Source: an uncultured Chloroflexia bacterium (GTDB lineage: Bacteria; Chloroflexota; Limnocylindria; Limnocylindrales; CSP1-4). Taken from it: DNA of 64,000 nucleotides. The DNA is taken from NCBI GenBank assembly GCA_963711105.1, contig CAVQCV010000005.1, positions 905,074-969,073 on the forward strand, in the 5' to 3' direction. This document shows, piece by piece, positions 53,551 to 60,546 of this stretch. The position numbers and the translations under genes are program-made. Under the pieces are notes generated by a model. That model was given only the letters and a program-made list of their open reading frames with translations, had not been told where the DNA came from and did not search any database. The stretch's first letter is position 1. Each line of letters starts with the position of its first letter.

Positions 53551-53844
53551 ATGCACTCCTATATGTTAGATAAGCAACTAACATCAACATTACGTTTGGC
53601 TAACTCGGAGGTTCGACCGGCGTGGTCCAACGGCCCCTCGGCGGAGAGAATGCTCATCGCCCGGACGCGGCAGTTCGAGCTCATCGCGCAGGCAAGGGCC
53701 TATCGACTCGGTCAAAGCCGCAACCAAGAACGCGGTCCGCTTGCGTTGGATAGGGTTCGCGGTTTCCGGCTCCGGCTTGGCTGGCTCATGATCGTCGTCG
53801 GCCGAGCCGTATCTGACGAGGAGCCCTGCGCCGACGCCGCCTGA
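53551..53844 (+). CDS. Candidate small Arg-rich protein upstream of the MFS gene (start uncertain)
   Basis: ...SAERMLIARTRQFELIAQARAYRLGQSRNQERGPLALDRVRGFRLRLGWLMIVVGRAVSDEEPCADAA. Possible starts are ATG 53551 (GGAGGG upstream), TTG 53596 and ATG 53650. About 47 of the last 64 codons end in G/C (hand count). Confidence 0.4.
   Translation: MHSYMLDKQLTSTLRLANSEVRPAWSNGPSAERMLIARTRQFELIAQARAYRLGQSRNQERGPLALDRVRGFRLRLGWLMIVVGRAVSDEEPCADAA
53564..53583. promoter_or_regulatory. Inverted repeat TGTTAG-N8-CTAACA (operator site 2)
   Basis: TGTTAGataagcaaCTAACA has arms identical to site 1. It lies in an AT-rich patch 37 nt after the ArsR-type stop. An extra CTAAC half-site is at 53600-53604. Confidence 0.5.
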
Positions 53845-53867
53845 GCCGGCGAACCGGAGGGGTAAAC

Positions 53868-55157
53868 GTGCCGGGAGCCCTCGTTCGATACGTCAAGAGC
53901 TTCACCGGTTTCGGCCGGAATGCCCGCCTGTTCCTGGTTACGACCATCGTCTTCGGGGCGGCGACGGGCCTGTACTGGGCCGACTTCAACCTGTACCTGG
54001 ACAAGATCGGCGTGAGCCGGGGCATGATCGGGGGGCTCATGTCCGTGAGCCAGCTCGCCGCGGTGGTGGTGTCGTTCCCCTGCGGGGCGCTCTCGAACCG
54101 CATCGGCCGGCGGGCGGTCATGGCCGGCGGCATGGGCCTGGTGGCGCTGGCCTTCCTGGCGGTTCTGCCGGGCGACCCGATCCTGCTCGTGCTGGGCGTG
54201 GCCGCCCTCGGCGCGGGCACTCAGGCCGTCTACGTGGTCCAGGTCCCCTACATCGCCGAGCAGACGCGGAGCGAGGAACGCAACGCGTACTTCGCCATCT
54301 GGGCGGCCATCGGCAACGTCACCTACCTCATCGCCACGCTGGCAGGCGGTTTCCTGGCCGAGGATCTGGCCCGCAGTCTCGGTCTGGGCGGCGGAGCGGG
54401 ACCGTACCGCCTCCTGATCGGGGCCACGGCCGCCCTGGCGGCGCTCTCGCTGGCGTCGACCTGGCTTCTCTCGAGCGACCGGCCCGGGCCGGCCGAACGA
54501 ATCGTCTCCAGTCTGGGCGGGCGGCTCGGCATCGTCGTGTCGGATAGACGGCTGTTCGCGAAGCTCCTTCTGCCAGGCTTTATCACCGCCCTCGGCGCCG
54601 GTCAGCTCATTCCGTTCCTCAACCTGTTCGTGCAGACCAAGTTCGATCTCGATCTGGCCGGGGTGAACGCCGTCCTGGCCGTCACCAGCCTCGGCACCAC
54701 GATTGCCATCCTGGCTCAGCCGGCGATCGCGAACCGGTTCGGGCGCATCGGCTCGATCGTTCTGGTCCAGGGCGTGAGCATCCCATTCCTGGTCGTCCTG
54801 GGCTTCTCGCCGATCCTGTGGAGCGTGATCATGGCCATGGCCGTCCGCAATTCGCTCATGAATGCGGGCAGCCCCATCTTCGACGCCTTCGCCATGGACC
54901 GCGTCTCCGCGGCCGAGCGGGCGACCCTGAGCGCCGGCATGACCCTGCTCTGGTCGCTCGGCTGGACGATCGCGCCCCTGTACTACGGCGCGCTCCAGAG
55001 CACGCTCGGCTTCACGGCCGGCTACACGGTCGATTTCGTGACGATCATCGTCCTCTACACGCTCTCGACCAGCCTCCTGTGGCGCTGGTTCCACGGGGCG
55101 GAGGCCGGCACGACGGCCCAGCCGGCCTCGGCGGCGGAGCCGGTCGCTCAGCCGTAG
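53868..55157 (+). CDS. MFS transporter
   Basis: GTG with GGAGGGG upstream. 12 hydrophobic segments. MFS loop motif GALSNRIGRR. Confidence 0.9.
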   Translation: MPGALVRYVKSFTGFGRNARLFLVTTIVFGAATGLYWADFNLYLDKIGVSRGMIGGLMSVSQLAAVVVSFPCGALSNRIGRRAVMAGGMGLVALAFLAVLPGDPILLVLGVAALGAGTQAVYVVQVPYIAEQTRSEERNAYFAIWAAIGNVTYLIATLAGGFLAEDLARSLGLGGGAGPYRLLIGATAALAALSLASTWLLSSDRPGPAERIVSSLGGRLGIVVSDRRLFAKLLLPGFITALGAGQLIPFLNLFVQTKFDLDLAGVNAVLAVTSLGTTIAILAQPAIANRFGRIGSIVLVQGVSIPFLVVLGFSPILWSVIMAMAVRNSLMNAGSPIFDAFAMDRVSAAERATLSAGMTLLWSLGWTIAPLYYGALQSTLGFTAGYTVDFVTIIVLYTLSTSLLWRWFHGAEAGTTAQPASAAEPVAQP

Positions 55158-55816
55158 TAGAGCGTGAGCATGTCCCAGTTCTCGGCGAGGTCGTAGATCG
55201 CGATCCCGATCAGCATCAGGCCGCCGACGAAGTTGATGGCCCGTGAATGCATGGCGAACCAGCGCGTCAGGTTGCGCTGCAATGCGCCCGACATCAGCGA
55301 GATGGCCAGGAGCGGCAGCCCGAAGCCGAGCCCGAACCAGGCGAACGCCCAGAACTGGGTCAGCGCCTCGCCCAGCGTGAACGAGTAGACGAAGATCGCC
55401 ACGACCAGCGGCCCGGAGCACGGCATCGCGATCGGGCCGTAGAGGAGACCGTAGGTGTAGGCGTTCAGGGCGGGGTGTCGCAGCAGCGGAACCTTGACCT
55501 GGGGCAGCCGGTAGAACGGATTTCGATTGAAGAGCAGCAGGATGCCGAGCACGGTGATGGCCACGATCGCCAGCGGGATGACGATGGCCAGGACCCTGCC
55601 GATCGAGACCGAAAGCAGCGCGATCAGCGCGCCCAAAGCCAGCATCGCCGTCAGCACGCCGGCCAGGACGAAGAGGCCCATCACGTAGCGGAGCCGCCCC
55701 TGGCCCACTCCGGCCGTCCCGCTCAGATAGGCCAGGAAGCCCGGGTAGAGGGGCAGGACGCAGGGGCTCGCGGTCGCAAGAAGCCCGAAAGTGAGCGACG
55801 TAAGGGCGACGTCCAT
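55148..55816 (-). CDS. ccdA: Cytochrome c biogenesis / thiol-disulfide electron transporter CcdA
   Basis: ATG 55816: MDVALTSLTFGLLATASPCVLPLYPGFLAYL...GPIAMPCSGP (two conserved Cys). Confidence 0.88.
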   Translation of the reverse strand: MDVALTSLTFGLLATASPCVLPLYPGFLAYLSGTAGVGQGRLRYVMGLFVLAGVLTAMLALGALIALLSVSIGRVLAIVIPLAIVAITVLGILLLFNRNPFYRLPQVKVPLLRHPALNAYTYGLLYGPIAMPCSGPLVVAIFVYSFTLGEALTQFWAFAWFGLGFGLPLLAISLMSGALQRNLTRWFAMHSRAINFVGGLMLIGIAIYDLAENWDMLTLYYG

Positions 55817-55820
55817 CCGG

Positions 55821-56447
55821 CTAGGCTGCCAGGTACTCCGCCAGTGTCTTGCTGATGCTCGTGGCGGACTTGATGCCGAGCGGCAGTCCCCACACGCCAC
55901 CCTGCTTGTCCACGAACAGCATCGCCTGCTCGGGCGGGTTCAGGTACGCCTCGTCGTAGTTCATCGAGAGGAAGCGGCCGATCTCGATGGGCGCGATGGC
56001 GATGCGCCAGTTGGTGTACTTGTTCTTGACCGCGAACTTCTTGAGGATCGAGGCATCCTCGTTGGGATCGACGTCCAGGCTGATCGCGACGAAGTCCTTC
56101 GGGTCGAGTTTGTTGACGACCTCCTGCACCTGGCTCATCTCGCCCTGACACGTCGGGCACCAGGTTGCCATCGTCTCGACGAGGATGACCTTGCCTTTGA
56201 AGTCGGCGACCCGGAACGTCTCGCCGCTATTCACGTCTGTCAGCGGGACGGCGAACCAGGACGGATCCGTGGGGTTGGGGTTCACGGTGCCGATGAGATC
56301 CACGTAGGGCGTGGGCGTCGGGCTGGGCGTTGCAGTCGGTGCTGCGGTCGGTTGCGGCGTCGGCGTCGCCGCGGACGCGCAAGCGGCGACGATCAGCAGG
56401 CCGGCCGCAAGGGCGGCGCTGCTTCGAAAGAGGCGTCGAGTTTCCAT
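55821..56447 (-). CDS. TlpA/ResA-like thioredoxin-fold lipoprotein (redoxin)
   Basis: Lipobox IVAACAS, PT linker, KGKVILVETMATWCPTCQGEM (CxxC). Confidence 0.85.
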   Translation of the reverse strand: METRRLFRSSAALAAGLLIVAACASAATPTPQPTAAPTATPSPTPTPYVDLIGTVNPNPTDPSWFAVPLTDVNSGETFRVADFKGKVILVETMATWCPTCQGEMSQVQEVVNKLDPKDFVAISLDVDPNEDASILKKFAVKNKYTNWRIAIAPIEIGRFLSMNYDEAYLNPPEQAMLFVDKQGGVWGLPLGIKSATSISKTLAEYLAA

Positions 56448-56546: not shown

Positions 56547-57875
56547 TCAGACGGCGGGCGCCCGTGACCTCAGCTTCGCCAGTACCTCCGCGACGCGCTT
56601 GTCCGGGGCCACGCGGGCGATGTCGGCGAGGGCCGGCTCCGACAACCTCACCGGACCCAGCGCGAGGACCCTCTCGAGCGCGGCCGCCACTTTCTTGCGG
56701 TCGCCGGCGCGAGCCGCGCTGCGGGCCTCGAGAACCGCCGAGCCGGGGCCCCCGGCCTGGCCCAGCGTCGAAGCCGCGGCCATCGACTCGTCGAACCTGC
56801 CGAGCGAGTGCAGCGCGACCTGCAGCTTGAGCAGGCCCTCCGTTCGGCCAGGGCCGTCGTAGCGGCGGAATGCCCCCAACAGCTGCGAGACCCGCTTGCC
56901 CTCGACGACCCTGGTCACGATCCAGAACACCGCCAGCGGGTCATCCTCCGCCACGAGCCTCGCCGCCACGGCGCCGTCGTCGCGCCGCGCGACTATGGCC
57001 GCGACATCAGGCAGAAGCGGTGCGGGACGGCGCTCGAACTCGTCAAGGTCGAGCGGTTCGGCGTCCTGGCCGGTCGGAGGCATCGTCTCCTCGTACGCCT
57101 CGCCGAACGCTCGCTTCGAATCGGGCGCGATAACCGCTACGGGCCGGTCCTTGCGCCGCTCCTCGCGGTACGGTTCCAGCGGCGCCGGTTGGGACGGGCG
57201 CGATTCCCGGCGCACTCCCCCGCCCCGGGCCGAGGCCACCCGCCAGAGAGTCATGTAGGGGGCCGGCTCCATCAGCGCAAACAGGAATATCACGAGGGCC
57301 AGATACCAGAAACCCCACGCCACCGCACCGACCGCGATGGCGATGCTGCACAGGCCCACCATCGCCTGGCCGGGCGTACGGGCCTGCTGCCCGCCGAAGA
57401 TCAGGAACAGATCGGCCACTACGTGCCCACCGTCCAGCCCGGCGACCGGTAGCAAGTTAAGGATCGCCCAGCCCAGGCTGACGAAGACCATGTCGCCGAG
57501 GACGATCCAGAGCGGCTCTATGGATACCACCCACGGCTGCAGGACCATCGCCGCCAGGCCGAACGGAACGCCTACGAGCGGGCCGGCCAGGCTCACCAGG
57601 ATCGAACGCCTCGGCGGCAGCGTGAAACCTGAGATGGTGAGCCCGCCCATGCCCCAGAGCCTGATTTCCGGATGGATGCTGTAGCGGGCGTAGGCGAAAG
57701 CGTGACCCAGTTCGTGGATCAGGATCGCGACCGCGACCACAACGAGCCACTCGAAGATGTACGGGCCGGGCCGGACCTGCAGGCCCAGGAGCAGCGTGAT
57801 CAGGAAGAAGTCCAGCGCGATCGTGACCGGGAAGCCGAAGAGCGTGAAGCGCAATCCGGGGAGCGAGGGAAACAC
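56547..57875 (-). CDS. M50 (site-2 protease) family metalloprotease with a C-terminal helical/TPR-like domain (paralog 1)
   Basis: GTG 57875: VFPSLPGLRFTLFGFPVTIALDFF...ILIHELGHAF...NLLPVAGLDGG. The N-terminus is colinear with paralog 2. The tracked ORF extends spuriously to 58496. Confidence 0.8.
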   Translation of the reverse strand: MFPSLPGLRFTLFGFPVTIALDFFLITLLLGLQVRPGPYIFEWLVVVAVAILIHELGHAFAYARYSIHPEIRLWGMGGLTISGFTLPPRRSILVSLAGPLVGVPFGLAAMVLQPWVVSIEPLWIVLGDMVFVSLGWAILNLLPVAGLDGGHVVADLFLIFGGQQARTPGQAMVGLCSIAIAVGAVAWGFWYLALVIFLFALMEPAPYMTLWRVASARGGGVRRESRPSQPAPLEPYREERRKDRPVAVIAPDSKRAFGEAYEETMPPTGQDAEPLDLDEFERRPAPLLPDVAAIVARRDDGAVAARLVAEDDPLAVFWIVTRVVEGKRVSQLLGAFRRYDGPGRTEGLLKLQVALHSLGRFDESMAAASTLGQAGGPGSAVLEARSAARAGDRKKVAAALERVLALGPVRLSEPALADIARVAPDKRVAEVLAKLRSRAPAV

Positions 57876-58033
57876 TGAGTGGCGTCCTGACTGCGAGATC
57901 CAACCTCGCCCGGCGGCGTCCCCCCGGCGGGGCTCGGGCGTGCCAGTCAGGTTAGCGGAGCCGGCCGCCCGCCGACAGGGGCAATTCGGACATCCCTTCG
58001 CCGTCCGACCGGCCGGCGGAGGCCGGACGCGTT

Positions 58034-59896
58034 TCAGGGGTTGCTGGGCGCAGGCGTGATCATCGGGCCGGGCGACCAGTTCGGCCCCGGGACGAAGAGC
58101 GTCTGACCTGGGGTCACTTCGGCCACGTCGGGGTTCGCAGCCTGGAGAAGCTCGGTCGAGATGCCCAGCTTGTCGGCGATCGATTGCCAGGTGTCGCCCG
58201 ACTCGACCACGTAGAACTGGAACGTCGATTCCACGACGCCTGTCGGGGACGGGACGGCCGTGCCGCTGGACGCCGGGGTAGGCGTCGAGGTCGGGACGGG
58301 CGTCGTGGCGGCCGGCGTTGGGATCGCGGCGCTGCGAAGAGCCGAATCGATCGCCGCCGCCAGCTCTTCGTAGGTGGGCGCGCTGACGCCCTGGCCCATG
58401 GCCACGCCGTTGATGAGGACCGTCGGGACGCCGGTAATCGTGAAGCTGGGCTGATCCACGGTCACAGCGCTGTCGTGGGTTCCCCGACGCACGCACGGCT
58501 CGAAGGAGCCCATGTCCAGTCCGGCCGCGCGGCCGATCGCCACGAGCCGGTCCAGGGTGAACGACCCGGACGACTCGCTCGGCGACTCATTGGCCAGCAG
58601 CCAATCCTTGTAGTCCCAGAACCTGCCCTGGTCCGCGGCGCAGCGGGCCGCGTTCGCGGCATCGCGCGATTCGGTACCGCCGGCGTTCGCGTCGATCACG
58701 AGGAAGTCGTGGTACACGATCCGGAGCTTGCCACGGCGGACGTAGGCATCGATCAGCCCGGGCTCGGTGTCCTGCTCGAACGCGCGGCAGGCGGTGCATC
58801 GAAAGTCCGCCCAGACGTCCATCGTGACCGGTGCGCCCGGGTCGCCGAGGGCTCTACCCTCTTTCGCGATGCCCGCGAGAGGCGCGGCCGAAGGCATCGC
58901 GAGCGGAGCGACGGCGGACGATCCGCCCGACGTGCCGGGGTTGTCGCTCGACGCTTCGACGAAATACCCCGTAACCGGGACCGGCAGGCTGCCGAACTCC
59001 AGAGTCGTGGCCAGCTGTCGGGCCTCGTCGGCTGTGAACCCGCCGGCCACTGTGATGGCACCGTCGGTGATCGGCTCGGCGACATAGGGCACGGACAGAA
59101 CGGTGCCGTCGAGGACGAGTGCGAAGAACTCGTGCCCATGCGCCGCCGACCAGGCGGCGAATCTGGCCGCCGCCTCGGCCTTGAGGTTGAACCGGACGGC
59201 CCAGCTGCCGTTGGTCTGGTCATCGGTGCGGAAGGTGCCGGACTCGATGTCCGAGCTGCTCAGCAGTTCGGGCAGCGCCGGATCTATCGGCGACCCGTTC
59301 AGCGCGGTCTTCGTCCCTGGAACGTCGGCCGTTCCGTAGTCGGCCGGTGGCAGGGGCACCACCTCCAGCCGGCCGCTCGCCTCCAGCATATCGAGCGTCC
59401 GGGCGGCGTCGGCGGGTTCGGCTACTTCCACCGTGACCCGATCGGGCGGCACCGCGGTCACGCCCGACCAGGCTGCTCCCGCGGCCGCAAGCCGCGCCTG
59501 CATGATCTCCACCGTCTTGTCCAGATCGGCGCGACTCGGCTCGCTGCCGTCCGGCGTAACCAGGCTCATGGAGATGGTCGTGACTGGGCCGATGGGGCTG
59601 GCCGAACTGCCCGAGGCCGGGCCGACAGGTTGCCCTTGACGGTTCCCCGGCAAGAGCAGCCCGGCCGCCACAGCGACCACGGCGACAACCGCCAGGCCGC
59701 CCAATCCCAACGCGCCGATGGCCCGGACGCGGACATTGGCCCCGCGAGTGTGCTCGATCATCGCTCGATCCCCTCTCACTTGCCGCCACGCCGGCGGCTG
59801 CGGCACCAGCGGTTCGGAGGCCGCCATATGGCGCCGGATGCCACGCAGGACTTCTTCGTCCTGCGCCCCCAACGGATCCATCCCCTGTTCGTTCAT
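58034..59896 (-). CDS. Anti-sigma-factor-like membrane protein: cytoplasmic N-terminus, TM, SecD-P1-like domain, DsbA-like thioredoxin domain (CTAC), PT linker, LysM
   Basis: The ATG overlaps the sigma gene stop (ATGA). TM at aa 58-82. aa ~105-310 resemble the SecD periplasmic P1 domain (...FFALVLDGTVLSVPYVAEPITDGAITVAGGFTADEARQLATTLEFGSLPVPV). aa ~345-520 are DsbA-like, with CTAC at nt 58787-58798. aa 561-603 are LysM (YVVESGDTWQSIADKLGISTELLQAANP...PGQTLFVP). Confidence 0.8.
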   Translation of the reverse strand: MNEQGMDPLGAQDEEVLRGIRRHMAASEPLVPQPPAWRQVRGDRAMIEHTRGANVRVRAIGALGLGGLAVVAVVAVAAGLLLPGNRQGQPVGPASGSSASPIGPVTTISMSLVTPDGSEPSRADLDKTVEIMQARLAAAGAAWSGVTAVPPDRVTVEVAEPADAARTLDMLEASGRLEVVPLPPADYGTADVPGTKTALNGSPIDPALPELLSSSDIESGTFRTDDQTNGSWAVRFNLKAEAAARFAAWSAAHGHEFFALVLDGTVLSVPYVAEPITDGAITVAGGFTADEARQLATTLEFGSLPVPVTGYFVEASSDNPGTSGGSSAVAPLAMPSAAPLAGIAKEGRALGDPGAPVTMDVWADFRCTACRAFEQDTEPGLIDAYVRRGKLRIVYHDFLVIDANAGGTESRDAANAARCAADQGRFWDYKDWLLANESPSESSGSFTLDRLVAIGRAAGLDMGSFEPCVRRGTHDSAVTVDQPSFTITGVPTVLINGVAMGQGVSAPTYEELAAAIDSALRSAAIPTPAATTPVPTSTPTPASSGTAVPSPTGVVESTFQFYVVESGDTWQSIADKLGISTELLQAANPDVAEVTPGQTLFVPGPNWSPGPMITPAPSNP

Positions 59897-60468
59897 CGCC
59901 AGATCTCCGGATTCCGGCGCAGCGTCTCGCAGGCGCGCGCCACCAACGACCGAACGCCCGAGGCCGACAGGCCCAGGACTTCGCCGATCAATTCGTCGTC
60001 CAGGTCGCGCTGGTAGCGCAGGATCAGGACCTCGCGCTGGCGCGGCGGTAGTTCACGGGCGAACCGATCGAACCAGAGCCAGAACTCGGTTCGACCGGCG
60101 TCCGATTCGGCGGCGGGCTCGCTGGCAGGATGAAGGCCGCCGAGCGGCAGCCAGGCCAGGAGGCGGCGCCGTCTGACCCTGTCTATCACCAGCCGGCGGG
60201 CGATCAGCAGCAGCCACGGCAGGGCCTGCCCTTTCGGGCCGCGGTTCTGCCGCCAGGCGGCATAGGCCCGCTGGAAGGTCTCCGACGCGACGTCCTCGGC
60301 ATCCGATTCGGAGCGGAGCATCAACAGGGCGTAGCGGAATACGTCGCGGTAGCGCCGCCGGTACAGCTCCTCGAACAATTCCCCCACCACCTCATCGCGC
60401 GGACGGACATCCTCCACGGTCCCGAGCACGCCGTCTCTCCCGTGCTCCACGCCCACGATTGCCACCAT
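59893..60468 (-). CDS. ECF-type RNA polymerase sigma-70 family factor
   Basis: Region 2: FEELYRRRYRDVFRYALLMLRSESDAEDVASETFQRAY. Region 4: LPPRQREVLILRYQRDLDDELIGEVLGLSASGVRSLVARA. Confidence 0.88.
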   Translation of the reverse strand: MVAIVGVEHGRDGVLGTVEDVRPRDEVVGELFEELYRRRYRDVFRYALLMLRSESDAEDVASETFQRAYAAWRQNRGPKGQALPWLLLIARRLVIDRVRRRRLLAWLPLGGLHPASEPAAESDAGRTEFWLWFDRFARELPPRQREVLILRYQRDLDDELIGEVLGLSASGVRSLVARACETLRRNPEIWR

Positions 60469-60546
60469 GTTCAGATTGACGAACCAGACCCAAATTCCGT
60501 CCCGCGCCGGCCTGGACCCCCGGCAAACCCGATACCCGCCGCCTCC

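What the first reader, a model, noticed from the sequence alone, without database searches (positions are those of the whole stretch)
58034..59896. Anti-sigma-like protein with an unusual SecD-P1 + DsbA (CTAC) + LysM ectodomain
Reading the translation, a short cytoplasmic N-terminus lacking a ZAS-type HxxxCxxC motif leads into one TM segment (aa 58-82). Three domains follow. The first is a region whose end (FFALVLDGTVLSVPYVAEPITDGAITVAGGFTADEARQLATTLEFGSLPVPV) closely follows the conserved pattern of the SecD periplasmic P1 domain. The second is a DsbA-family thioredoxin domain with CxxC = CTAC (nt 58787-58798) and further Cys residues. The third, after a Pro/Thr linker, is a C-terminal LysM peptidoglycan-binding domain.

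A translocon-derived substrate-cradling domain, an oxidase and a wall anchor on a single sigma regulator suggest it monitors oxidative folding of freshly exported proteins. That is inference. The domain order itself is directly visible in the sequence.
Basis: partly seen in the sequence, partly recalled or inferred. Interest (0 to 1): 0.75.

Follow-up and report, generated by a model that had tools for sequence, protein, structure and literature searches.

The report
SecD-P1/DsbA/LysM partner of ECF sigma
A soil Chloroflexota bacterium encodes a sigma-factor partner protein whose outside part joins a copy of the protein-export machine's substrate-handling domain to a disulfide-bond enzyme and a cell-wall anchor; this is a real, unannotated design that probably links gene control to the folding of exported proteins.

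Summary
ORF 58034-59896 (minus strand, 620 aa) has a Cys-free 57-aa cytoplasmic tail, one TM segment, a complete SecD P1 domain, a DsbA/TsdA-type thioredoxin domain (CTAC plus a second Cys pair that is invariant in the 9-sequence alignment), a Pro/Thr linker and LysM.

Its start overlaps the stop of an ECF sigma gene (ATGA). That coupling holds in all ~20 orthologous loci examined, all from uncultured Limnocylindria (Chloroflexota). A conserved ECF-type promoter (GGGAC-N17-CGTCAA) ends 7 nt before the sigma ATG. M50 site-2-type proteases and a TlpA/CcdA pair are recurrent neighbours.

The three-domain combination is one variant of a modular family. Orthologous partners carry P1 only, Trx only, P1+LysM, two P1, or two LysM. 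At least three other ECF-coupled partner groups with unrelated N-termini also carry P1 ectodomains. Named members are "hypothetical protein" or carry JGI domain labels (protein-disulfide isomerase, SecD), never anti-sigma.

Best reading (0.6): a proteolysis-controlled anti-sigma factor that doubles as an envelope foldase. The tail matches no known anti-sigma domain, and sigma binding, the signal and the redox direction remain untested. It is a new variant of a known kind; interest 0.6.

The parts
60476..60503 (-). ECF-type promoter-like element GGGAC(60503-60499)-N17-CGTCAA(60481-60476). It ends 7 nt before the sigma ATG at 60468, implying a leaderless or near-leaderless transcript.
   Evidence: Conserved in 12/12 aligned loci. 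A motif scan of the ~1.25 Mb of loci then held gave 13 upstream-of-sigma sites, plus three 2-mismatch hits elsewhere that I take as chance. All 9 extended-motif hits in a metagenome scan also precede this sigma. There is a single copy in the window. Promoter function and autoregulation are inferred.
59893..60468 (-). ECF sigma factor, 191 aa (sigma-2 plus sigma-4), with a conserved ~30-aa N-terminal extension.
   Evidence: Pfam Sigma70_r2 and r4; NCBIfam sigma70-ECF above cutoff, SigE-fam_strep and BldN-family models below cutoff; PDB hits to Mtb SigE, SigW and the 6DXO ECF sigma; 68-76% identical across orthologous loci.
58034..59896 (-). Partner gene (putative anti-sigma factor and foldase), 620 aa. 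Its ATG overlaps the sigma stop codon (ATGA).
59786..59860 (-). Conserved cytoplasmic tail motif, aa 13-37: DEEVLRGIRRHMAASEPLVPQPPAW.
   Evidence: Conserved in 44 representatives at 50% identity and in alignments A1 and A3. AF2 predicts helices at aa 13-30 and 37-48 with pLDDT ~60. No Pfam or PDB match.
59645..59728 (-). Single transmembrane segment, aa 57-84.
   Evidence: The only hydropathy peak in the protein; corresponds to TM1 of the SecD model TIGR01129.
58961..59584 (-). SecD P1-like domain (base plus head), aa 105-312.
58331..58894 (-). DsbA/TsdA-type thioredoxin domain, aa 335-522. CTAC at 58787-58798; second Cys pair C419 (58640-58642) and C468 (58493-58495); cis-Pro P491 (58424-58426).
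   Evidence: The CxxC, C419, C468 and P491 are invariant in the 9-sequence alignment. C419 and C468 align with both extra Cys of Mtb DsbA 4K6X.
58223..58330 (-). Pro/Thr-rich linker, aa 523-558.
   Evidence: Sequence; pLDDT below 50.
58085..58222 (-). LysM domain, aa 559-604.
   Evidence: Pfam LysM, 32 bits against a cutoff of 20.9; pLDDT ~90. Present in only a minority of family members.
60547..62226 (-). M50 (site-2-protease family) metalloprotease with a C-terminal TPR domain, upstream of the sigma gene.
   Evidence: Pfam Peptidase_M50 plus TPR; intact HELAH and NLMPFPGLDG motifs; orthologs adjacent to the sigma locus in L004, L080, L132 and L148.
56547..57875 (-). Second M50 metalloprotease, downstream of the partner gene. 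The GTG start at 57875 is tentative.
   Evidence: Pfam Peptidase_M50; HELGH and NLLPVAGLDG motifs; the most frequent neighbour of the sigma/partner pair (L001, L003, L004, L005, L010, L089, L120, L128, L132, L148).
55821..56447 (-). TlpA/ResA-like thioredoxin-fold lipoprotein (WCPTC).
   Evidence: also adjacent to the sigma locus in L120, L133 and L144.
55148..55816 (-). CcdA/DsbD-type transmembrane electron transporter. The start at M29 of the listed ORF is inferred.
   Evidence: Pfam DsbD_TM; co-located in L120, L133 and L144; a DsbD_TM gene also precedes the zinc-ribbon P1-Trx protein in L091.

Best explanation
The gene encodes the membrane partner, most likely the anti-sigma factor, of the ECF sigma factor encoded immediately upstream.

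Proposed mechanism:
1. The conserved ~57-residue cytoplasmic tail, predicted to form two short helices, holds sigma at the membrane.
2. Outside the cell, a SecD-derived P1 domain handles unfolded, newly exported polypeptides (in SecDF this domain contacts unfolded precursor). An adjoining membrane-tethered DsbA/TsdA-type thiol-disulfide oxidoreductase acts on their cysteines, and LysM pins the assembly to peptidoglycan.
3. When exported or unfolded client load or envelope redox state perturbs the ectodomain, it is trimmed. One of the neighbouring M50 site-2-type proteases then cuts the membrane segment and sigma is released.
4. Free sigma fires its own leaderless GGGAC-N17-CGTCAA promoter. That makes more sigma and more of the P1-DsbA partner, which both repairs the defect and re-silences sigma.

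Shown: domain anatomy, translational coupling, conservation of the tail, promoter conservation, and recurrent M50 and TlpA/CcdA neighbours.

Inferred: sigma binding, proteolytic release, the nature of the signal, the redox direction, and autoregulation.
For: - Domains confirmed by sequence profiles and by structure prediction and search.
- Sigma stop and partner start overlap (ATGA) in 12 of 13 loci. Sigma-then-partner order holds in every orthologous locus where both are visible.
- Across orthologs the ectodomain is swapped (P1, Trx and LysM in many combinations) while the tail and TM are kept. This is the pattern expected of an anti-sigma factor with a modular outer domain.
- Three further ECF-coupled partner groups with different N-termini also carry P1 ectodomains: P0079/P0091, P0068 and P0069.
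- The promoter-like element is conserved upstream of the sigma gene in every locus examined and, at full motif length, nowhere else.
- Catalytically intact M50 proteases lie next to the pair in most loci.
- Precedent: SecDF's periplasmic region binds unfolded precursor (PMC5974789). TsdA, the closest solved relative of the Trx domain, is a membrane-tethered, stress-induced oxidoreductase (PMC9974433). RsbN and CnrY/NepR show that anti-sigma domains can lack similarity to known ones (PMC6101532).
Against: - The tail is short (57 aa, ~25 conserved) and matches no Pfam or PDB anti-sigma domain.
- No co-fold could be run.
- No regulon member other than the operon itself was found.
- M50 adjacency is frequent but not universal: none within the flanks held (<=8 kb) in L002, L006, L007 and L045.
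- P1+Trx also exists on a zinc-ribbon-anchored protein with no sigma gene nearby. The ectodomain can therefore function outside sigma control.
- The free exchange of ectodomain modules among orthologs argues against any one of them being the obligatory sensor.
Confidence: 0.6

Rival explanations
1. Effector only. The protein is a sigma-dependent envelope foldase (P1 holdase, DsbA-type enzyme, wall anchor) that is simply the first gene of the sigma regulon. It does not bind or inhibit sigma, and sigma activity is set by something else, such as its conserved N-terminal extension or the M50-TPR proteins.
For: The tail has no recognisable anti-sigma domain. P1+Trx occurs without a sigma gene on a zinc-ribbon anchor. 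The sigma has a conserved ~30-aa N-terminal extension. The only promoter copy found drives the operon itself.
Against: The cytoplasmic tail is conserved in 44 representatives while the ectodomains vary. The strict ATGA coupling suggests translational coupling (inference). Orthologs whose ectodomain is only two LysM repeats or only P1 make little sense as a dedicated foldase effector yet still keep the tail.
Confidence: 0.2
2. Redox-switch anti-sigma. The CxxC of the DsbA-type domain is itself the sensor, with its oxidation state set by the quinone/VKOR pathway or by the CcdA-TlpA pathway. Its state gates proteolysis of the anti-sigma factor, and P1 and LysM are scaffolding.
For: The CxxC and cis-Pro are invariant in the 9-sequence alignment. 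TlpA/CcdA is a neighbour in the window, L120, L133 and L144. Trx is the best-conserved ectodomain (49-61% identity, against 37-44% for P1).
Against: Orthologous partners lacking Trx altogether (P1 only, P1+LysM, two LysM) are coupled to the same sigma.
Confidence: 0.1
3. Artefact or decaying gene. The fusion is a mis-assembly, a merged gene call or a secD pseudogene fragment.
For: The sequences come from metagenome-assembled genomes. One locus (L006) has a frameshift inside the Trx domain and one (L116) is truncated.
Against: The ORF is continuous, with coding-type GC3 of 0.82. About 27 clusters at 50% identity from independent assemblies share P1+Trx. Key catalytic residues are invariant in the 9-sequence alignment. 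The domains are predicted confidently.
Confidence: 0.02

Closest known systems
RIP-controlled ECF anti-sigma factors (E. coli RseA/sigmaE with DegS and RseP; B. subtilis RsiW/sigmaW with PrsW and RasP)
   Same: An ECF sigma gene is followed by a single-pass membrane partner with the N-terminus inside. M50-family site-2 proteases are available. A probable autoregulated ECF promoter is present, and the theme is envelope or secretion stress.
   Different: The tail is not a class I or ZAS anti-sigma domain and is only 57 aa. The ectodomain consists of P1, DsbA and LysM. The M50 proteases have no PDZ hit in Pfam, carry TPR domains and are encoded next to the pair. No site-1 protease has been identified.
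Streptomyces BldN-RsbN (class III anti-sigma domain) and CnrY/NepR (class II two-helix clamp)
   Same: The sigma scores on the BldN-family model (E 1e-16, below cutoff) and hits the PDB ECF sigma 6DXO, which I take from memory to be BldN. [quoted passage not shown] The predicted two short helices resemble class II in size.
   Different: No detectable similarity to RsbN or any other solved chain. The RsbN tail is 117 aa (PMC6101532), against 57 aa here. The RsbN ectodomain has no known function.
SecD/SecDF P1 periplasmic domain (T. thermophilus 3AQO/3AQP, D. radiodurans 5XAP)
   Same: The complete P1 base-plus-head fold, preceded by a TM1-like helix. The domain is known to contact unfolded precursor (PMC5974789).
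   Different: One TM segment only, with no TM2-6 proton path and no SecF or P4 partner. It is fused to an oxidoreductase and coupled to a sigma gene. Identity to true SecD P1 is ~24-33%.
Actinobacterial membrane-tethered DsbA-like oxidoreductases (C. diphtheriae TsdA/DsbA 7UNN/4PWO, MdbA, M. tuberculosis DsbA 4K6X/4JR4, B. subtilis BdbD)
   Same: A thioredoxin fold with a helical insert, a CxxC motif, a cis-Pro loop and a membrane tether. The second Cys pair aligns with that of Mtb DsbA. TsdA is a stress-induced backup folding catalyst (PMC9974433).
   Different: The domain lies C-terminal to a P1 domain on a sigma-coupled protein. The CxxC dipeptide is variable (TA, PA, PR, PG, PF, AA). The redox partner and direction are unknown.

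Membership tests
ECF anti-sigma factor (class I / ZAS) | Gene adjacent to and co-oriented with an ECF sigma gene | tested here: met
   ATGA overlap in 12/13 loci. The sigma gene lies directly upstream in all orthologous loci where both are visible.
ECF anti-sigma factor (class I / ZAS) | Recognisable anti-sigma domain (zf-HC2, RskA_N or similar; ~80-90 aa helical bundle; HxxxCxxC for ZAS) | tested here: not met
   No ASD family at E<=10. No PDB anti-sigma match. No Cys before residue 367. The tail is only 57 aa.
ECF anti-sigma factor (any class) | Physical binding and inhibition of the cognate sigma | not testable with these tools
Biochemistry or AlphaFold-Multimer is needed.
RIP-controlled anti-sigma factor | Single-pass N-in topology and an available M50 site-2 protease | tested here: met
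   One TM segment. Two M50 genes with intact HExxH and LDG motifs flank the pair, and M50 genes are adjacent in most orthologous loci. Cleavage itself was not tested.
SecD/SecDF translocon subunit | P1 periplasmic domain (base plus head) | tested here: met
   Pfam, NCBIfam, PDB profile and Foldseek results.
SecD/SecDF translocon subunit | Six-TM RND-type membrane domain (SecD_SecF_C) with a proton path | tested here: not met
   Only one TM segment and no SecD_SecF_C hit. It is not a SecD.
DsbA/MdbA/TsdA thiol-disulfide oxidoreductases | Thioredoxin fold with helical insertion, CxxC motif and cis-Pro loop | tested here: met
   Thioredoxin_4 E 1e-23. End-to-end alignment to TsdA with CTAC aligned to CPFC and G-V-P to G-T-P. 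C367, C370 and P491 are invariant in the 9-sequence alignment. Foldseek TM-score 0.76 to BdbD.
DsbA/MdbA/TsdA thiol-disulfide oxidoreductases | Oxidase activity and a reoxidising partner (DsbB or VKOR) | not tested
   No DsbB or VKOR among the window ORFs scanned, but not all ORFs were scanned. A CcdA/TlpA reducing pair is adjacent instead.
LysM peptidoglycan-binding module | Match to the LysM profile above the curated threshold | tested here: met
   32 bits against a cutoff of 20.9; confident beta-alpha-alpha-beta prediction. Binding was not tested.
Rcas_1661 thioredoxin-like (seleno)lipoprotein family (NF041057) | Score above the NCBIfam cutoff | tested here: not met
   101 bits against a cutoff of 190.

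The most novel reading that the evidence does not exclude
In Limnocylindria the SecD P1 domain (with its TM1) has been duplicated out of the translocon and co-opted as a receptor for unfolded exported polypeptides on several independent ECF anti-sigma factors. In this reading the anti-sigma factor sits at or near the Sec exit site and converts secretion or oxidative-folding load directly into transcription. That would be functionally analogous to the DegS/RseA unfolded-OMP sensor, built from translocon parts, and here it is fused to its own repair enzyme.
Probability: 0.2. Interest if true: 0.8.

Novelty: new variant of a known kind. Interest (0 to 1): 0.6.

Why it matters
- If the reading is right, a translocon domain has been recruited as a signalling ectodomain. 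I know of no other example, and none turned up in the literature searched.
- It would also be an anti-sigma factor that is at the same time the enzyme the response needs.
- It defines an unannotated family: at least 100 of the 150 best-scoring 50%-identity representatives are single-pass, non-SecD P1 proteins. Those with names are called 'hypothetical protein', 'protein-disulfide isomerase' or 'SecD'.
- The family comes with a clean, conserved promoter and clear partners (sigma, M50 proteases, TlpA/CcdA), so it could be reconstituted heterologously.
- It offers a handle on how abundant but uncultured soil and peat Chloroflexota sense envelope protein-folding stress.
- It provides an independent test of the idea that the SecD P1 head binds unfolded substrates.

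Tried and rejected
- **Tail against Pfam and PDB at E<=10.** There were no anti-sigma hits; the only hits were Pro-rich noise from designed Kelch proteins.
- **Regulon search by promoter motif.** The window has one copy, against 1.9 expected by chance at one mismatch. In the held loci the only clean copies lie upstream of sigma. A metagenome scan returned mostly chance hits from unrelated organisms, and all 9 true extended motifs precede the same sigma. The regulon beyond the operon therefore remains unknown.
- **Operon boundary.** No intrinsic terminator was found, and the 158-nt spacer folds no better than shuffled sequence (z = -0.83).
- **Literature.** Nothing was found on anti-sigma factors with SecD, DsbA or thioredoxin ectodomains or on Limnocylindria envelope signalling.
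- **Taxonomy from cluster names.** Only four members carry an organism name, all Candidatus Limnocylindrales. Restriction to this class is therefore likely but not proven.
- **'All single-TM P1 proteins are sigma partners'.** I rejected this: P0133 is a split SecD next to a SecD_SecF_C gene, and the zinc-ribbon P1-Trx protein P0045 has no sigma neighbour.
- **The ordinary DsbA-like paralogs of the lineage (L008-L079)** are not sigma-linked.
Full report
**Observation.** The ORF at 58034-59896 (minus strand) encodes 620 aa. Pfam finds SecDF_P1_head (aa 211-306, E 7e-20), a weak SecD_1st (aa 126-179), Thioredoxin_4 (aa 346-517, E 1e-23) and LysM (aa 562-603, above threshold). The NCBIfam secD model aligns aa 67-309, which is the first SecD transmembrane helix plus P1.

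A profile of nine homologs matches the crystallised isolated P1 domain of T. thermophilus SecDF (3AQO) almost end to end (E 3e-29). It also matches C. diphtheriae DsbA/TsdA, M. tuberculosis DsbA, BdbD and MdbA. An AlphaFold2 model (mean pLDDT 67; P1, Trx and LysM domains 75-92) retrieves SecDF (E 4e-15; TM-score 0.74-0.78 to 3AQO) and DsbA/BdbD by Foldseek.

CTAC lies exactly at nt 58787-58798. The protein has only four cysteines (367, 370, 419, 468) and one hydrophobic segment at aa ~55-86. The CxxC, the cis-Pro (P491) and the second Cys pair are invariant in the nine-sequence alignment. C419 and C468 align with both extra cysteines of M. tuberculosis DsbA, whose CPAC aligns with CTAC.

**Context in the window.** The partner's ATG overlaps the stop codon of a 191-aa ECF sigma gene at 59893-60468. 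Two paralogous M50 metalloproteases flank the pair, at 60547-62226 (with a TPR domain) and at 56547-~57875. Both have intact HExxH and NxxPxxxLDG motifs. Downstream lie a TlpA/ResA-like lipoprotein (WCPTC) and a CcdA/DsbD-type membrane protein. The rest of the window is ordinary: transporters, two-component systems, arabinose genes and carB.

**Relatives.** A word-indexed search of 5.8 billion clusters found only nine P1+thioredoxin proteins. An exhaustive HMMER search with aa 1-320 showed a larger family:
- The 150 best representatives at 50% identity are almost all single-pass, non-SecD proteins with a P1 domain.
- Forty-four share the N-terminal motif DExILxGVRRxLxxVEPLVPxPPAW.
- About 27 have P1+Trx.
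- Other variants are P1 alone, P1+LysM, two P1, P1 plus an unknown domain, and a zinc-ribbon N-terminus with P1 or with P1+Trx.

Every genome hit is a Limnocylindria/Limnocylindrales (Chloroflexota) MAG from fen, peat or soil. Named members are 'hypothetical protein', 'protein-disulfide isomerase' or 'SecD'.

**Synteny.**
- The sigma gene immediately precedes the partner in every orthologous locus where both are visible: the window, L001-L007, L010, L045, L080, L081, L085, L089, L120, L128, L132, L144, L148 and L155. The overlap is ATGA in 12 of 13 loci measured.
- Sigma is 68-76% identical across these loci. The tail is 41-56%, P1 37-44% and Trx 49-61% identical.
- Partners of this one sigma vary in their ectodomains. 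P1+Trx(+LysM) is most common. L010 and L045 have Trx only, P0017 has P1 only, P0015 has P1+LysM, P0004 has two P1 plus Trx, and L128 has two LysM only.
- M50 genes are adjacent in most loci, and TlpA plus CcdA are adjacent in the window, L120, L133 and L144.
- The ordinary DsbA-like paralogs of these genomes, which often occur in tandem, are not sigma-linked.

**P1 is a recurrent ECF-partner ectodomain.** P1-only proteins with unrelated N-termini overlap their own upstream ECF sigma genes. These are P0079/P0091 next to gltX, P0068, and P0069, whose sigma gene is frameshifted in that assembly. There are exceptions. The zinc-ribbon P1-Trx protein P0045 sits beside a DsbD_TM gene with no sigma. 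P0133 is a split SecD next to a SecD_SecF_C gene.

**Promoter.** Directly upstream of the sigma ATG is an element conserved in every locus: CGGGACGGAAC-N12-TTCGTCAATC. In the window it occupies 60476-60503. Read as GGGAC-N17-CGTCAA it has ECF -35/-10 geometry. The -10 element ends 7 nt before the ATG, which implies a leaderless or near-leaderless mRNA; this is an inference. A metagenome scan found nine more full copies, all upstream of the same sigma, and no other target genes.

**Is it an anti-sigma factor?**
- For: strict coupling to sigma; a conserved cytoplasmic tail plus TM while ectodomains are exchanged; neighbouring site-2-type proteases.
- Against: the tail is short and matches no Pfam or PDB anti-sigma domain, and a co-fold could not be run.
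- Precedent softens the negative. RsbN (class III) and CnrY/NepR (class II, a two-helix clamp) lack similarity to other anti-sigma domains (PMC6101532). The sigma here scores on the BldN-family model and on the PDB ECF sigma 6DXO, which I take from memory to be BldN.

**Mechanism proposed (confidence 0.6).** The protein is a proteolysis-controlled anti-sigma factor whose ectodomain is also the response's effector. P1 binds unfolded exported chains, as the SecDF periplasmic region does (PMC5974789). The DsbA/TsdA-type domain exchanges disulfides with them; TsdA is a stress-induced, membrane-tethered backup oxidoreductase (PMC9974433). LysM anchors the assembly to the wall. Overload or redox imbalance would lead to ectodomain trimming, M50 cleavage, sigma release and autoinduction of the operon.

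Oxidase versus isomerase/reductase cannot be decided from sequence, and the adjacent CcdA-TlpA pair keeps the latter open. The rival readings are effector only (0.2), a CxxC redox switch (0.1) and an artefact (0.02).

**Novelty and verdict.** This is a new variant of a known kind: an ECF sigma with a single-pass partner and M50 proteases. It has a previously undescribed translocon-derived ectodomain fused to an oxidoreductase, and it belongs to an unannotated, modular family of an uncultured class. No description was found in the literature searched. Its functional story is plausible but unproven, and the modularity of the orthologs shows the triple fusion is not obligatory.

Noticed in passing
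window 57947-57962 (-), within the 57876-58033 spacer; also L001 2659-2674, L010 9199-9214, L089 5162-5177, L116 548-563, L120 3713-3728, L128 5849-5864: A second conserved non-coding element, GAGTTGsCyCTGTC-N13-GGCTCsGCTAACCTGA, lies ~70-90 nt upstream of the downstream M50 protease gene in 7 distinct loci. It may be a separate promoter (TAACCT as the -10 element) or a regulatory site. It is unrelated to the sigma promoter motif.
   Followed up: partly
window 60379-60468 (-), sigma residues 1-30: The ECF sigma has a conserved ~30-aa N-terminal extension before region 2 (consensus MMxxVxVERGxxExLERVG). Its function is unknown, and it could be a regulatory or pro-sequence.
   Followed up: no
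window 60547-62226 (-) and 56547-57875 (-): Two paralogous M50 intramembrane metalloproteases with intact catalytic motifs bracket the sigma/partner pair. Each carries a long C-terminal TPR or helical domain, and Pfam reports no PDZ hit. M50 fused to TPR is an unusual site-2-protease architecture.
   Followed up: partly
window 55148-56447 (-); L120 8573-9863; L133 310-1597; L144 5-899: A TlpA/ResA-like lipoprotein plus a CcdA/DsbD_TM electron transporter recur next to the sigma locus. A reducing thiol pathway is thus co-located with the DsbA-type partner.
   Followed up: partly
L128 5022-5711: An orthologous sigma partner whose ectodomain is only two LysM repeats, with no P1 and no Trx.
   Followed up: partly
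L091 1298-3286 (P0045); L086 177-1139 (P0047): Proteins with a zinc-ribbon N-terminus, a TM segment and P1 (with or without Trx). P0045 is not sigma-linked; it sits between a DsbD_TM gene and the same MFS/ArsR-type genes that lie next to the window's cluster.
   Followed up: partly
L213 3001-5278 (P0133): A split SecD: TM1 plus P1 is encoded as a separate 351-aa gene upstream of a SecD_SecF_C gene. This is a possible evolutionary intermediate for free-standing P1 proteins.
   Followed up: partly
L116 156-2007; L006 7274-7859; L212 2451-3004: Three irregular loci. L116 has the promoter and the first ~10 sigma codons, then a Trx C-terminal fragment and an M50 gene, which is either a deletion or a mis-assembly. 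L006 has a frameshift inside the Trx domain. L212 has a frameshifted sigma gene.
   Followed up: no
L081 1015-3345 (P0004); P0013: Tandem duplication of the P1 domain within one partner protein.
   Followed up: no
L016, L021, L023, L027, L032, L038, L039, L042-L044, L047, L048, L051: Limnocylindria genomes carry many DsbA-like paralogs, often as adjacent tandem pairs. This suggests heavy reliance on extracytoplasmic disulfide chemistry.
   Followed up: no
window 47348-48721 (-), 50955-52292 (-), 52415-55157 (+): A rhomboid protease, an M16 peptidase and an ArsR-type HTH plus MFS pair lie nearby. The M16, MFS and ArsR genes are syntenic with the sigma locus in L081, L085, L089 and L091.
   Followed up: partly
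window 7016-7103 (-): A single tRNA-Leu gene; no other Rfam family reached threshold in the window.
   Followed up: yes
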